Of a stretch of 24,314 nucleotides of DNA, positions 1 through 15,000 are shown piece after piece. The stretch covers positions 1 to 24,314 of the forward strand of contig JAYWEM010000074.1 of NCBI GenBank assembly GCA_043779265.1, read 5' to 3'. The position numbers are program-made. Source of the stretch: a bacterium (GTDB taxonomy: Bacteria; Eisenbacteria; RBG-16-71-46). The first letter of the stretch is position 1. Every line of letters starts with the position of its first letter.

Positions 1-3000
1 GCCTCGCTGCGACGGTCGATCGTCGCGGTGCCACGGGCTCGTGGCAGCCGCTCGGGCCCGCGATGGCAACGGGCGCCGATGCGCTGACGTTCGAGGACCG
101 CGACGTCGTGCCGGGAGAGCGTCTCGCCTACCGACTCGGCTACCTCGAGGATGGCCAACTGAGGCACACCGCCGAGCACTGGCTCGACGTGCCGCGTGCC
201 GCGGTGCTCGCGCTCGCGGGGTTCGCGCCCAACCCCTCACCGCGCGGCGCCAGCGTCGCGTTCACGCTGCCCGACGACTCACCCGCCACGCTCGAGGTGC
301 ACGACATCGCCGGGCGGCTGGTGATGCGCCGCGACGTCGGCGCACTGGGAGCAGGACGCCATGTGGTCGCGTTCGGCTCCGACGCCCGCCTCGACTCCGG
401 CATGTACCTCATCCGCCTGAGGAGCGCCGCGGGGCAGCGCGTCGCGCGCGGCGTGGTGATGGACTGACGCATCGTCGCCGAGCAGCCTGTGCCCGAACTG
501 GATAGGGGAGCGCGGGTTCGCCCCGCGCTTCCCCTCCCACACCACCGGACATGCGGGTCCGCATCCGGCGGTTCGATGGTTCAGCGGCCGACGAGGCGGG
601 GTACGCCGAGTCGGTCGAAGTACGAAGGTCGGCAGAGCGGTCTGAGTGCCTCCGTGTGCGGCCATCGCCCACCAGCGGCGAGCGTGGGCCGCGAGTGCGC
701 GGGTGTACACGTTCAGGTCGTCGGCGTGGCGAGCGAACTGGAGGCCCCGCCTCTCCAGTGCCTTGTCCACGTCATCCAACAGCACGTTGGCCAGCAGTGG
801 CGACAGTGGCCCGCCTTGCGGCGTGCCCTCGTGTCGTTCCACCGTCACGCCGTCGGCCAGCACTCCGGCCACGAGGTAGCGGCGGATCGGTCCCAGCACG
901 CGTCGGTCCGCGAGGCGCCGCGACAGTCGCTCCATCGGCACGTCGTGGTTCACCCGGTCGAAGAACTTCGCCAGGTCCACGTCGGCCACCCAGCGCAGCC
1001 CCGACTGGATGTGGCGATGCGCGGAACGCACCGCATCGTGCGCGCTGCGCCCCGGTCGGAAGCCGCGGCTGTGTTCGGAGAACGTCGGGTCGGACTGCGG
1101 CTGCAATGTCTGAAGAAGGCACTGCTGGATGAACCGGTCCAGCACCGTCGGGATGCCGAGTCGCCTCGTGCCCCCGCCGGGCTTGGGGATGTCGTGCCGC
1201 CTCACCGGTTGCGGCTGATAGGTGCCCGCGAGCAGTTGCTCCCGGATGCCATCCCAGTGCGTCCCCAGATACGTCGACAGTTCACCCACGGTCATCCCGT
1301 CCACGCCGGGACCGCCCCTCTTCTGCTTCACACGTTTCAGCGCCGCGAGCGCGTTCGTGCTGCTCGGCTCCGCCTCATATCCGGTTTCTATTCGTCGGCC
1401 CGTCGGTTCGTTTCCCGCTTCCTCCGGACGCTCCCTCGCGGTCACGCCCTTGCGGTTCCCCTGGGTCCCTGTGACCAGGTCCTCGGAGGACTTCCACCTC
1501 CAAGTCAGCGCCCGTGCTGGGCGTACGAACGAAGCGGCCGCCCGGCAGGAGCCGGACGGCCGCTCGGAATCGGTGGAGTCCCCTCAGCGAGGGGCACCCG
1601 CGTCGATCCACGCGATGATGACCTCGGGCTCTCCGGCCTTGAGGAACTGGCGCATCGATCCGGTGCCTCCGACGTAGAACCGGATGTTGTTCCGATTCGC
1701 GAACACCACGTCGTAGTCACTCCAATCGGGGAGGGTGGTTCCCGCATGGTGACAACTGGTGCACCCGGTCGGCTGGGTGCCCTCGGAACGATCCGCGATC
1801 AGGTGCTGGATCGTGTTCGTGTACGTGACGGGCCCCGTGACCGGTGCGTTGAGGATCTTGTCCTCGCGGCCGCATGAAACCGTGGCCAGGGCGATGGGCA
1901 GGGCGACGAGCAGCGCGGCCGCCGTGCGACGCAAGTTGGTTCCGGGCATGTTCGACTCTCCTCGGTTCGCGGTACGCATGTCAGTAGCCGATGTAGGCGC
2001 GCACACCGATCTGCGCGGCCAGGCCTGAGAAGTCGACACTGCGATCACCCAGCAGCGACTGGGGGAAGGACTCGTAGACCTCGAAATCGTCGCGGGGCCA
2101 CTCGAGCGCCCCGGAGTTCGCGCGTCGGCCGGACACCCGGCCCGCCACGGCGAATCGCGGGCTCATGAACACCTCGGCCTCGGCTCCGACTTGGAAATAG
2201 AGCCCGATCGCCTCGCCGAGCAACTGCGTCGGGATGAGGCGGCCCGAGACGAGCGAGCGTTCGAACTCGAGCGTCGCTTCGCTGGAGACGAGCCCAGCGC
2301 CCGCGAACACCGAATAGTGGAGCTTGGGATTGTCCCCGAAGTGGTACAGCAGCGTCGCGACGACCGGCGTGGCCGTCGTCGTGTAGCTCGCATGGGAGTT
2401 GCGGACCTCGGGCAGCTTGTCGGAGGTGACGCTGCGCAGGCGCGACATCTCGAGCTCGAACGACCAGCGCGGCTTGAGCGGGAATCGCACGGAGATCCCG
2501 AACTCACCGCTGCCCTCGAAGTCCTCCGCCTCGGCGACGCCGGCGCTGCTCGCGAGGTCCACGAAGTCCTGATGCACTCCCTGCCCCTTGCCGAAGAAAG
2601 CGCCGATGCTCGACGGGTAGCGCTTGCCGGCCTCGACCTGCTCCGCCTTGAACTCGCGAAGCGCCAGATCGAACACCTCCATCTCATCGGGCGGCACCTG
2701 CAGCGCGTCGAGACGGAAGTTCGCGTCGCTCCTGAGCACGGCCTTGTGCAGTTCCTTCGCCTCCAGTCGGCGTCCGAGCTTGGCGAGACAGCGAGCGCGC
2801 AGGGCGCGGCCGGCATTGAGGTCATCGCCCGTGATGCGACCGTCGCGGAGCGCTTCCGCGAGCAGATTCGATGCCTCCTGGAACTTGGACTCCACGTAGA
2901 ACGCCCGAGCCTGCTCGAGCGCCGAGGACGTGACCATGGGTCTCGCTGCCGTCGCAGCGGGCTTCGAGCCCTGAGCCAGCGCGGCCGGTGGCGCCGCGCT

Positions 3001-12000: not shown

Positions 12001-15000
12001 GGATCGGGGATGGCGAGCAACGAGAAGCTCGCCTCCTCCTTGGGACCGCGACCCACTTTCCAGCGGCCGGGCTCGACATCGAATCGCTGCGGGACGAGCG
12101 GACCCGAGATCGCCTCGAGCCGCAATACCCAGTCGCTCTCGGGCTCGGCGGCGGGCGGCGGTGGGCCGACGGGCGGTGCCCCGAGGATGACCGTCATCTC
12201 GGTCATCTCCTTGGCCAAGGCAGCCCGGCCGCTGGCCCGAACCCACCCACAGCGAGTGCAGTTCGCCGCCTGCTTCGGGATCTCATGCCCCTCGGGGCAG
12301 TGCTTCACCACCTTGGGTCCGGGTCGCAGGAACATGGGCGCAAGCTACCACCCACCCCATCCCCATCCCAATGTGGCGCCGGGGGCCTCCGCCCGCAGCG
12401 GACCCGAGCCCGCGAAGCTCGTGTAACCTGAGCGCGCAAGCGATCGAACTCCAAACCGAATCGAAAGGATACGAACATGAAGAGCACGTCCACAGCCATC
12501 TGGGAAGGCACGCTGAAGGAGGGCAAGGGGGTCGTCTCCGCTGCCAACGGCGCGTTCAGCGAGACACCGTACTCGTTCGGCAAGCGGTTCGAGGGTGCCA
12601 CCGGCCCCGGCACGACTCCCGAGGAGATGATCGCTGCAGCGCACGCCGCCTGCTTCGCGATGGCGACCTCGGGCGAACTCGGCAAGGCGGGTTTCACGCC
12701 GACGCGGCTGGAAGCCAGCGCGACCGTCACGCTCGAGCCTGTCGACGGCAAGCCCACGGTGAGCAAGTCGCACCTGGTGCTCAAGGCGACCGTGCCCGGC
12801 ATCGACCAAGCGAAGTTCGACGAGATCGTGGCCGGCTCCAAGGCCGGCTGCCCGATCTCACGGCTGCTCAAGGCCGAGATCACGCTCGACGCCCGACTCG
12901 TCTGATCGCGAGAGGGCCCGGGCCTTGTTGGCGCCGGGCCCTTCGCGTTCTCTCACGCGCGAGCGAGCAACCCGGACTCAGCTGTCCGCTGGCCCCGGCC
13001 CCGGCGCCTGCCTCGTGCTCAGGCGCTGCACCAGACTCGCAAGGCTGAAGGGCTTTCCGATGAATTCGCAGTCTGGCGGGAGCATCGCGTCCTTCCCGCC
13101 CGGACGGTCATTGTAGCCGGACATCAGGATGATCCGCATCTTCGGGAAGCGCGCGCGCAGGTCATGAGCCAGATCGATCCCGCTCATGCCGGGCAGCACG
13201 ATGTCGCTCAGCAGCACATCGAACGCGGCCTCGCGCTGTGCGATCTCGATCGCCTCTCGCGGACTGCCCGCCACGGTCACGTCGTGGCCCTCCAAGCCGA
13301 TCGCGCGCTGAAGCAGCTCTCGCACCTTGACCTCGTCCTCGACGATCAGGATCCGAAGGTTCTCGGACGATCGATCGGTCGTCGGGCCAGCCATCGGGAT
13401 GGCCACGGGCTCCGGTCGCGAGAGCGGCTCGCTGCAGCCGGGAAGATGCACGTTGAACGTGCTCCCCAGGCCGAGTTCGCTTCGAACCGAGAGTCGGCCA
13501 CCTGCCTGGGTGACGATCCCGTAGCACGAGGCAAGGCCAAGCCCCGTCCCCTCGCCCTTCGGCTTGGTCGAGAAGAACGGTTCGAAGAGTCGCGCCTGCA
13601 CCTCCTCATCCATGCCGGTGCCGGTGTCGCTCACGGCGATCAGCACGCCAGGCGGCTCGATCTCCGCGGGCGTTTCGCCGCCCGCGGCATGCGCAGCGGC
13701 TTCATCTTCGCGGATCTCGATCGTGAGGACGCCGCCCTTGGGCATGGCGTCACGCGCGTTGACGGCGAGATTCAGGAGCACCTGCTCGAGTTGCACCGGG
13801 TCCATCAGGACGACAGCGGCGCGCTCCGGACGACTGAGTTGCAACTGCGCGCGACCCTGGAGTAGGTGCTTCAGCATCACCTCCATGCCGCCCACGACTG
13901 CCGCGGCATCAATCACCCTCGGTTCGATCGGCTGCTTCCTCGCAAAGGCGAGCAGCTGACGTGTGAGTGCTGCAGCCCGCTTGGAGCCATCCAGAATCGC
14001 GCGCGCTTCGTCGGCCTCGACGCTGCCGGGCGCGAGTTGCCGGGCGAGCCGCTCCGCATTTCCCATCGTCACCATGAGCAGATTGTTGAAATCATGAGCG
14101 ATGCCGCCGGCCAATCGGCCGATGCTCTCGAGTTTCTGCGACTGCAGGAACTGATGCTCGAGACGCCTGATCATCGTCAGATCACGGGCGACGGTGGAGA
14201 GGAACTCGACCTCCCCGTGCTGGTCCCGATGCGCGAGCACGACCTGCGAGACCGGGATCTCGCGGCCATCTCCAGCTCGAAGAATCGACTCACCGTGCCA
14301 ACTGCCGTCGCGGAGTGCCGCAGGGATCGCCTCCTCGAAGATCATGCGGCCCGACTCGTCCGGGTGGAGTTCCGAAATTCTCGTGGAACTCAGGTCCTCA
14401 TGGCGCGAGCGCCCGATCATCTGGCGGCCAGCCGGATTGATATACAACACTCGGCCATTGGGATCGGAGATGCCGATGAAGTCAGGGGTCGCATCGAGCA
14501 TCGAGAGCAGCCGTTTCTGGATCGCCTCGGCCACGGATCGCTCCCGGATCATGGCGGTGAAGGAGCGGAACAGCAGTGCCACCTCGCGATTCCCGGGTTC
14601 GGGCAGGGGAGCGGCGAAACCGCTCACGCCATAGTCGTGGAGCACCTTGCTGAGAGTCTCGACAGGACGCGCGACGTGATCCGCCAGGATCAGGCCGATG
14701 ATGAACACCGCCAGCATGAGCAGGCCCATCAAGAGCCACATCGGCGCAAGGATGCCGCGGACGAGCGCATCGACCTGAGCCCTCGGCACGACGACGACGA
14801 GCATGAGCTCGACTTCACGGAGTCTCGCGGAAGCCCCGATCCACCTCTCACTGTGGCGTGTGCCGTACCACGGCTCGGCGGCTCCGAGATGCGCGCCTGC
14901 GAAGAGGGAGTCCAACCGCCAGAATCCATCCGGCTCCTCCGCGCTGTCCGAGAGCCCCGCCGAGCGGGCGAGCACGCGACCCTCCTTGTCGAACAGGGCG

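What a model noticed while it worked through the whole genome (the two positions that open the first line are those of the whole stretch)
1981..12335. T6SS accessory operon with a double-FHA membrane lytic transglycosylase (FHA-FHA-TM-SLT) beside PpkA/PppA-like kinase an [...]
g01180 joins two cytoplasmic FHA domains, a TM helix and a periplasmic lytic transglycosylase, in an operon with FHA, VWA-FHA, PP2C, Ser/Thr kinase and three TPR-barrel genes. It travels with the T6SS, so the wall-opening enzyme appears wired directly to the threonine-phosphorylation switch.
Evidence so far: Domains: calls 17, 18. 22 of 24 genomes with its C-terminal part have TssC (27 of 89 have TssC); the two exceptions are 80% and 54% complete (132, 133). 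Same contig as tssC within about 16-30 kb in 10 genomes; operon abuts tssJKLM in G081 (130).
(Added by a program. Inside this text positions count along the whole contig: contig position 1 is position 1 of the stretch shown here. "Call 12" and the like, gene names such as g00115 and contig names such as C1 are that model's own, and its searches are not shown. The text may have been shortened before it was handed on; [...] marks where a part breaks off. The agent that wrote the report below was given it as the finding of a first reader that could run no searches.)

Follow-up and report, generated by a model that had tools for sequence, protein, structure and literature searches.

The report
Phospho-switched wall cutter for T6SS
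A membrane protein joins two phosphate-reading domains inside the cell to a cell-wall-cutting enzyme outside it and travels with the bacterial type VI injection machine, suggesting that a kinase signal tells the cell where to open its own wall to build the weapon.

Summary
Confirmed and extended. Window 10021-11814 (-) encodes FHA-FHA-TM-MltD-like lytic transglycosylase; the catalytic Glu is invariant and both pThr pockets are intact in 70-72 of 72 homologues. In its Ca. Eisenbacteria family, 22 of 23 genomes with the SLT-bearing gene have TssC (27 of 87 have TssC), and the operon runs into tssJKLM whichever sheath module follows.

New: FHA-TM-SLT is a multi-phylum family. In Fibrobacterota 46 of 48 carriers have TssC, the other 2 have tssL, and 71 of 121 genomes have neither gene. 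It also lies beside tssJKLM in single Myxococcota, Acidobacteriota and metagenome loci.

TssL carries an E-T-hydrophobic tail motif, like the Agrobacterium phospho-site that binds Fha, in 20 of 20 carriers examined but 1 of 5 non-carriers. G174 deleted only the fusion gene and has Thr changed to Ser.

Best reading: a cluster-encoded wall-opening enzyme docked on kinase-marked TssL, joining the TagH and MltE roles. Against: orphan copies in genomes without TssC, and carriers whose TssL lacks the motif. Nothing is shown biochemically, and no description was found in print.

The parts
11811..12335 (-). Small cytoplasmic FHA protein: CxxxH...CxxC putative zinc ribbon, Thr-x-x-hydrophobic linker motif, canonical FHA
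   Evidence: Pfam FHA aa 92-160; Cys motif and linker Thr in most homologues shown; the zinc-ribbon label is inferred from the motif
10021..11814 (-). FHA-FHA-TM-lytic transglycosylase fusion, 597 aa: FHA1 about aa 4-94, FHA2 about aa 152-250, TM aa 255-273, helical stalk and bundle, MltD-like SLT with catalytic Glu460
10435..10437 (-). Codon of Glu460, predicted catalytic acid (E-S motif)
   Evidence: Invariant in 72 of 72; aligns with the E-S of MltD 8rhe and Slt70
8723..10024 (-). Signal peptide-VWA-like domain-TM-degenerate FHA (no Gly-Arg)
   Evidence: Pfam VWA_2 below cut-off and FHA aa 359-422; Gly-Arg absent in 14 of 14; topology inferred from sequence
7644..8726 (-). PP2C Ser/Thr phosphatase with C-terminal TM (start codon uncertain)
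   Evidence: NCBIfam Stp1 261 bits, cut-off 230
5236..7653 (-). Ser/Thr kinase: kinase domain, linker with two Thr-hydrophobic motifs, TM, periplasmic TPR module and PEGA
   Evidence: TPR module homologous to the barrels' N-terminal module, E 7e-9
4162..5193 (-). TPR plus OmpA/OmpW-like outer-membrane barrel, copy 1
   Evidence: Pfam TPR_16 and OMP_b-brl below cut-off; aligned with the other copies
3119..4165 (-). TPR plus 8-stranded barrel, copy 2
   Evidence: AlphaFold2 model, 8 long strands; Foldseek top hits OmpA and OmpW; Atlas
1981..3048 (-). TPR plus barrel, copy 3
   Evidence: 58% identical to the G016 barrel; alignment A7
1584..2048 (-). Small lipoprotein with lipobox and CxxCH haem-binding motif (true start probably near 1950-1980); directly precedes tssJ in G016 and G111
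   Evidence: Lipobox and CxxCH in 5 of 5 copies shown; no Pfam match; gene order
279..1565 (-). Degenerate group II intron (reverse-transcriptase remnant, domain V/VI); not part of the operon; lies where tssJ follows in relatives
   Evidence: RVT_1; Rfam RF00029 at 497-573; flank copies on five other contigs

Best explanation
The 597-aa protein is a dedicated, cluster-encoded lytic transglycosylase for T6SS membrane-complex assembly, targeted from the cytoplasm by threonine phosphorylation. Step 1 (shown by sequence and model): it spans the inner membrane once, with FHA domains inside and an MltD-like catalytic domain outside on a helical stalk. Step 2 (shown by genomics): it is inherited and lost with the T6SS and stays with tssJKLM. 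Step 3 (inferred): the operon's kinase, triggered through its periplasmic TPR/PEGA part, perhaps by the TPR-barrels, phosphorylates Thr-hydrophobic motifs, including the E-T motif in the disordered N-tail of TssL. Step 4 (inferred from co-loss): the fusion's FHA domains dock on phospho-TssL, which parks the wall-cutting domain over the nascent TssJLM complex so that a hole is opened only there; the PP2C resets it. One chain would thus do the jobs of TagH/Fha (reader) and MltE/TagX (cutter). My odds by step: T6SS accessory enzyme 0.85; recruited through pThr-FHA binding 0.7; TssL tail as the docking site in Eisenbacteria 0.55.
For: E460, S461, A473, G475, W477, Q478, Y534, N535 and G537 are invariant in 72 of 72; FHA1 R27/S41/N63 and FHA2 R179/S193/N215 are kept in 71-72 of 72. 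Family f1: 22 of 23 SLT-bearing genomes have TssC, against 5 of the other 64. The operon lies upstream of tssJKLM in G016, G014, G044, G069, G070, G084, G090 and G158, and with inserted genes in G019 and G020; the TssC that follows is 40-89% identical to G016's, so the link is to the membrane complex rather than the sheath. G001 and G002 have no TssC match and keep only an FHA2+TM stump. Fibrobacterota: 46 of 48 carriers have TssC and both others have tssL; 9 lie within 12 kb of tssC; second copies in G210, G275 and G316 sit beside tssM. Adjacent to tssJKLM in Myxococcota G214, Acidobacteriota G395 and metagenome locus L286, which repeats the whole gene order. The TssL tail motif E-T-[IVMT]-[IV] is present in 20 of 20 carriers with a visible N-terminus and 1 of 5 non-carriers; background is 0.3-0.5% of 55-aa windows. 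The non-carriers fall at four places on a TssK+TssL tree. In G174 the small-FHA stop overlaps the VWA-FHA start, so only the fusion is gone, and the motif's Thr is Ser; G136 of the same genus keeps both. No TagH C-terminal domain was found in 5 of 5 genomes. Precedent: Agrobacterium Fha binds TssL phospho-Thr14 (PMC3953482, passages).
Against: No activity, phosphorylation or binding was measured. The motif pattern was drawn from the same sequences, so the background rate flatters it. G113 (85% complete) keeps the motif with no fusion found. G189 is 77% complete, and its operon region was not found at all. G012 and G008 lost all three FHA genes, so only G174 singles out the fusion. The TssL of G214, G395 and L286 has no such tail. 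In Fibrobacterota, G218 keeps a Thr tail with no fusion found, and the best TssL of four carriers (G237, G249, G255, G287) lacks it. In Acidobacteriota only 3 of 8 carriers have TssC, and 16 of 19 TssC genomes showed no carrier. Five of 15 genomes reached through other-phylum loci lack TssC. Twenty-five TssC genomes in other families of G000's phylum show no fusion. Kin are not independent.
Confidence: 0.55

Rival explanations
1. It is a T6SS wall-opening enzyme under pThr control, but its FHA domains dock on the kinase's own phosphorylated linker or on the small FHA protein's tail; TssL is read by another protein or not at all.
For: The kinase linker and the small FHA protein also carry Thr-hydrophobic motifs, and the kinase motifs are not seen in G012 or G008. 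Carriers G214, G395 and L286 have no TssL tail motif. In Fibrobacterota and Acidobacteriota the gene often sits next to a Ser/Thr kinase. With two FHA domains it could bind both partners.
Against: G174 keeps the small canonical FHA protein and the kinase, yet lost the TssL Thr together with the fusion. The VWA-FHA domain lacks Gly-Arg.
Confidence: 0.22
2. It is mainly a TagH-like scaffold and wall anchor (TagL-like). The SLT domain grips the wall, or repairs or resizes it after firing, rather than making the initial hole.
For: TssL here is the short DotU-only form without an OmpA domain; no TagH C-terminal domain was found. A review states that such TssL normally needs TagL (PMC13584744, passages). 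In Acinetobacter, sheath foci form without TagX (PMC9251886, passages).
Against: The catalytic Glu and all SLT motifs are invariant, and the LysM wall-binding repeats of ordinary MltD were not detected in the fusion.
Confidence: 0.1
3. It is a general kinase-controlled envelope remodeller that only hitch-hikes in the T6SS island.
For: Orphan copies occur in genomes without a TssC match, some beside kinases. Most Fibrobacterota copies are not on the tssC contig, and two are 70 and 273 kb away.
Against: Near-perfect co-occurrence in two phyla, decay of the gene where the T6SS is gone (G001, G002), copy-number matching, adjacency to tssJKLM in five lineages, and co-loss with the TssL motif. A separate SLT-only MltD-like gene is present in most of these genomes.
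Confidence: 0.09
4. It is a secreted wall-degrading T6SS effector.
For: Effectors with lytic transglycosylase activity exist (PMC10433429, passage), and the gene lies in a T6SS cluster.
Against: Single TM anchor in 72 of 72, cytoplasmic FHA domains, and a position among regulatory and membrane-complex genes rather than beside vgrG/PAAR. It is conserved as one orthologue at 33-83% identity.
Confidence: 0.03

Closest known systems
MltE of enteroaggregative E. coli T6SS (Santin and Cascales 2017; seen only through reviews PMC13584744, PMC10433429 and PMC9251886)
   Same: Lytic transglycosylase serving membrane-complex assembly.
   Different: MltE is a housekeeping enzyme encoded outside the cluster and switched on by TssM in the periplasm. 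This one is cluster-encoded, MltD-like, anchored in the inner membrane and carries cytoplasmic pThr readers.
TagX of Acinetobacter/Burkholderia (seen through the same reviews)
   Same: Cluster-encoded inner-membrane peptidoglycan hydrolase with a periplasmic catalytic domain.
   Different: TagX is a VanY-type endopeptidase with two TMs and no FHA domain.
TagH/Fha with PpkA and PppA; Agrobacterium pTssL-Fha (PMC3953482)
   Same: FHA reader, kinase and PP2C in the cluster; a Thr followed by hydrophobic residues in the TssL N-tail.
   Different: TagH is soluble and has the T6SS_FHA_C domain, not found here.
MltD of P. aeruginosa (PDB 8rhe) and ordinary MltD-LysM proteins
   Same: Catalytic domain sequence (E 1.4e-18) and fold.
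   Different: No LysM repeats detected, TM instead of lipoprotein anchor. Sixty FHA-less MltD-type rows form their own clade (SH-aLRT 97) apart from all FHA-fused rows.
TssW-PpkA-Fha (Acidovorax, PMC12607579), TagQRST and RtkS (PMC6082577)
   Same: An outer-membrane or periplasmic input to a T6SS kinase, the role suggested for the TPR-barrels.
   Different: The barrels share a TPR module with the kinase's periplasmic part. Homology to TssW, TagR or RtkS was not tested.
[quoted passage not shown]
   Same: A machine-specific wall cutter encoded in the machine's own gene cluster.
   Different: The review calls such enzymes an exception in T6SS clusters; I found no FHA-fused example in my searches.

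Membership tests
Lytic transglycosylase, SLT/MltD-like | Catalytic Glu in an E-S motif | tested here: met
   E460-S461 in 72 of 72; aligns with MltD and Slt70
Lytic transglycosylase, SLT/MltD-like | GLxQ and AYNxG motifs, lysozyme-like fold | tested here: met
   AxGLWQ and A[SA]YNxG near-invariant; Foldseek MltD E 4e-8
Lytic transglycosylase, SLT/MltD-like | Cleaves peptidoglycan to 1,6-anhydro-muropeptides | not testable with these tools
   Needs an enzyme assay
MltD proper | C-terminal LysM repeats; NCBIfam cut-off | tested here: not met
   No LysM match; NF008050 67 bits against 508; separate clade
pThr-binding FHA (the two domains of the fusion) | Gly-Arg, Ser-x-x-His and Asn-Gly motifs (definition recalled; Arg/Ser importance as in PMC3953482) | tested here: met
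   71-72 of 72 in both domains
pThr-binding FHA (VWA-FHA protein) | Gly-Arg motif | tested here: not met
   Arg absent in 14 of 14
TagH/Fha1 | T6SS_FHA_C domain and TIGR03354 cut-off | tested here: not met
   75 bits against 120; PF20232 in 0 of 5 genomes
TagX | VanY-type peptidase domain | tested here: not met
   Only FHA, YscD_cpl and SLT match
T6SS-associated gene (TAG) | Encoded in T6SS loci and co-occurring with core genes | tested here: met
   in G000 itself the operon is on another contig
T6SS-associated gene (TAG) | Required for, or modulating, T6SS activity | not testable with these tools
   Needs genetics
PpkA | Active Hanks kinase with TM in the T6SS cluster | tested here: met
   Pkinase E 3e-53; Gly loop, VxxK, HRDIKPAN and GTPAYMSPE located
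PpkA | Orthology to proteobacterial PpkA; phosphorylates Fha or TssL | not tested
   No tree with PpkA was built; best NCBIfam hit is the PknB type, below cut-off
T3SS SctD/CdsD (FHA-like domain, TM, periplasmic ring) | Periplasmic ring-building domains; TIGR02500 cut-off | tested here: not met
   25 bits against 86; periplasmic part is helical SLT

The most novel reading that the evidence does not exclude
FHA-TM-SLT proteins are an undescribed, multi-phylum family of trans-membrane devices in which a cytoplasmic phospho-threonine mark decides where the wall is cut. In Eisenbacteria the mark is on TssL, so the threonine-phosphorylation pathway licenses T6SS assembly by dragging a dedicated transglycosylase to the chosen site. 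This would give one physical answer to both 'what does phosphorylation do' and 'how does TssJLM cross the wall'. Orphan copies would do the same for other kinase-chosen envelope sites.
Probability: 0.45. Interest if true: 0.85.

Novelty: new variant of a known kind. Interest (0 to 1): 0.72.

Why it matters
Reviews state that the roughly 18-nm TssJLM complex must cross a wall with 2-nm pores, that specialised transglycosylases are an exception in T6SS clusters (PMC10433429, passage), and that how activated TagH stimulates assembly is still unclear (PMC13584744, section 10). A natural fusion of pThr reader and wall cutter ties these two open questions together and suggests that they are linked in systems where the parts are separate. 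It also gives a precise, cheap test: one peptide, two FHA domains and one catalytic residue. It adds a T6SS accessory class for little-studied phyla (Ca. Eisenbacteria, Fibrobacterota).

Tried and rejected
Complex prediction of FHA1-FHA2 (aa 1-252) with the unphosphorylated TssL tail (aa 12-48) gave no verdict (score 0.00, mark 0.32); it is not used either way.

Linking the window to the tss contigs in G000: C124 (tssJK, tssL start) and C3 (tssL end to clpV) overlap exactly by 99 nt, but C74 and C124 share no overlap, although both end inside plus-strand ORFs. Contigs of four public runs did not bridge the gap. No RNA holder was listed.

Co-occurrence test in G214's phylum: 3 of 201 genomes hit, only 8 candidates scored per genome, so uninformative. 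Fisher tests are not relied on, because kin are not independent.

Promoter and terminator scans were at chance level. The repeat search of 1-2100 found nothing notable.

The metagenome scan gave 5 fusion loci among 80; 2 had tss genes in view (L286, L291), L333 is only 2.5 kb long, and L287 and L308 showed none.

Literature searches finding no FHA-SLT fusion or Eisenbacteria T6SS description. These cover open-access full text only; supplements were not opened and could list such genes.

Rejected: membership of TagH, TagX, MltD proper and SctD; effector role.

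
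Full report
OBSERVATION. The window is all of contig C74 of G000. Close homologues are labelled Ca. Eisenbacteria. A minus-strand gene run holds a small FHA protein (11811-12335), the 597-aa fusion (10021-11814), VWA-FHA, PP2C, a Ser/Thr kinase, three TPR-barrels and a CxxCH lipoprotein, followed by a degenerate group II intron. The fusion has two FHA domains, one TM helix in 72 of 72 aligned homologues, and an SLT domain closest to P. aeruginosa MltD. The 72 were picked from the 120 best hits listed, out of 652. AlphaFold2 (pLDDT 91) and Foldseek agree. The catalytic E460-S461, AxGLWQ and YNxG motifs, and the Arg/Ser/Asn pThr-pocket residues of both FHA domains, are kept in 70-72 of 72. The inside/outside topology is inferred from the absence of a signal peptide and from more basic residues before the TM than after it (mean 3.0 against 1.9).

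LINK TO THE T6SS IN THE HOME FAMILY. Of 201 genomes of the phylum, 52 have TssC, 27 of them in family f1 (87 genomes with G000). The SLT-bearing gene was found in 23 f1 genomes and none outside f1 (one search scored only 6 candidates per genome; several hits are cut by contig ends). Twenty-two of the 23 have TssC; G149 (80% complete, 4.3-kb contig) does not, and no TssL was found in it. G001 and G002, of G000's genus, have no TssC match and keep only an FHA2+TM stump before the PP2C gene. In ten genomes the fusion is 15.4-28.8 kb from tssC, and the operon runs into tssJ-K-L-M, directly or after a few genes. The sheath modules behind tssM differ (TssC 40-89% identical to G016's), so the operon follows the membrane-complex genes. 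Gene content varies: G014 has no kinase or barrel in the locus, and several genomes lack the PP2C there. In G000, tssJK-tssL (C124) joins tssL-clpV (C3) by a 99-nt overlap, but no link to C74 could be shown. Unpublished genome G026 enters only as a negative in the denominators.

A WIDER FAMILY. A profile search of 1.84 billion representatives, classified with local HMMs, gave FHA plus SLT in 89 of the 150 proteins P0114-P0263, most with one TM between. On a tree of 178 SLT domains, 60 FHA-less MltD-type rows form one clade (SH-aLRT 97), apart from all FHA-fused rows; deeper branches are weak, so a single origin is not shown.

In Fibrobacterota (121 genomes), 48 have TssC, 48 the fusion, 46 both and 71 neither. 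The two fusion-only genomes have tssL (G308; G318). Nine have the fusion within 12 kb of tssC, two have it far away on the same contig, and the rest have it on other contigs. Second copies in G210, G275 and G316 sit beside tssM and a kinase. Lineage structure surely inflates this table; adjacency is the firmer evidence.

Myxococcota G214 has FHA and VWA-FHA before tssA and the fusion just after tssJKLM. Acidobacteriota G395 has a double-FHA copy behind tssJKLM. Metagenome locus L286 repeats the whole order FHA, fusion, X-FHA, PP2C, kinase, TPR, tssJKLM at 36% identity.

Against exclusivity: in Acidobacteriota only 3 of 8 carriers have TssC and 16 of 19 TssC genomes gave no hit; 5 of 15 genomes reached through other-phylum loci lack TssC. 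The family is therefore used beyond the T6SS, often next to a kinase.

WHAT THE FHA DOMAINS MAY READ. In Agrobacterium, PpkA-dependent phosphorylation of Thr14 in the TssL N-tail creates the binding site for Fha (PMC3953482, passages). I read TssL in 21 of the 22 genomes with both genes; G071 was not examined and G006's N-terminus is cut off. All 20 readable tails have E-T-[IVMT]-[IV] as an island in an otherwise poorly alignable tail; E29 and T30 are invariant in a 15-sequence alignment of carriers. The pattern occurs in 0.3-0.5% of 55-aa windows of the G000 proteome, but it was defined after the fact.

Among the five TssC genomes without the fusion, G012 and G008 lack the motif, G174 and G189 have Ser for Thr, and G113 keeps it. 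They fall at four places on a TssK+TssL tree of 30 genomes (some supports are low). G174 is the informative case: the small-FHA stop codon overlaps the VWA-FHA start, so only the fusion is deleted, while the small FHA, kinase, barrel and tssJKLM remain; G136 of the same genus keeps gene and Thr. FHA domains are described as highly pThr-specific, and the VWA-FHA domain lacks the canonical Arg in 14 of 14. By elimination the fusion is the likeliest reader. One of ten TssL from other families has a similar motif (G052). No other core T6SS protein carries the motif consistently. No TagH C-terminal domain was found in 5 of 5 genomes.

Limits: this is one clean event. TssL of G214, G395 and L286 lacks the tail. 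Fibrobacterota tails mostly carry conserved Thr-hydrophobic motifs of another form, but G218 has one with no fusion found and four carriers lack it in their best TssL. The kinase linker and the small FHA protein carry similar motifs.

INPUT SIDE. The barrels model as TPR helices plus an 8-stranded OmpA/OmpW-like barrel, and their TPR module is homologous to the kinase's periplasmic module (E 7e-9). An outer-membrane-to-kinase relay, analogous to TssW (PMC12607579, abstract and section 6) or RtkS (PMC6082577, passages), is a guess.

MECHANISM. Shown: architecture, intact active site and pockets, co-inheritance with tssJKLM, co-loss with the TssL Thr. Inferred: the kinase marks TssL, the FHA domains dock, the SLT opens the wall locally, and the PP2C resets. 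Confidence in the full chain is 0.55. Rivals: docking on the kinase or small FHA (0.22), scaffold/anchor role (0.10), hitch-hiker (0.09), effector (0.03).

COMPARISON AND NOVELTY. It works like MltE or TagX plus TagH, but fails membership of TagH, TagX, MltD proper and SctD. A 2023 review says specialised LTGs are an exception in T6SS clusters (PMC10433429, passages). In a 2026 review of accessory factors (PMC13584744: outline, passages, section 10), the parts I read name only TagX and MltE as wall remodellers. PMC9251886 and PMC3482391 (passages) added no such fusion. Santin and Cascales 2017 and Weber 2016 were not read directly. Searches found no description; supplements were not opened. 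Verdict: a real, new variant of T6SS accessory machinery; interest 0.72.

Noticed in passing
window 279-1565: Degenerate group II intron with flank copies on contigs C81, C125, C163, C167 and C30; it lies where tssJ follows the lipoprotein gene in relatives.
   Followed up: partly
window 1584-2048: Conserved lipoprotein with CxxCH and no Pfam match, often directly before tssJ: a possible haem or redox input to a T6SS.
   Followed up: partly
L117:8007-11341, L092, L120, L121, L104 (Sorangium/Polyangiaceae): An ordinary MltD-LysM gene sits inside T6SS clusters, divergent from a true TagH: apparently a second, independent recruitment of an MltD-type enzyme.
   Followed up: partly
L077, L079, L080, L161, L163 (Fibrobacterota): The fusion follows a CHASE2 Ser/Thr kinase, preceded by a FecR(-LysM) gene in L077 and L080, away from the tss core: a different sensory input.
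   Followed up: no
A2 column T137; A3 column T168: Single-FHA members have an invariant or near-invariant Thr in their own cytoplasmic linker, a possible self-binding or oligomer switch.
   Followed up: no
L251, L261, L262, L270, L271: TssL tails in one Fibrobacterota group carry a duplicated Q-T-[LM]-F-G motif.
   Followed up: no
G000 C110:2-664 and C3:12367-15099: A second clpV fragment, 79% identical in DNA, lies next to vgrG and PAAR genes; duplication or assembly artefact.
   Followed up: no
L237:3-902 (G113): The contig starts with an FtsH-like stretch (recalled resemblance) in frame with the kinase C-terminus, hinting at a rearrangement or misassembly that removed the FHA operon.
   Followed up: no
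L051:4851-6164, L056:3279-4511, L067:10731-12164: Divergent second TssC-like genes in reverse orientation at the ends of many clusters.
   Followed up: no
window 12477-24314: Unrelated neighbours: OsmC, hybrid histidine kinase, porin, MutY-like glycosylase, transglutaminase-like TPR protein, DUF3798 binding protein and ABC transporter.
   Followed up: no
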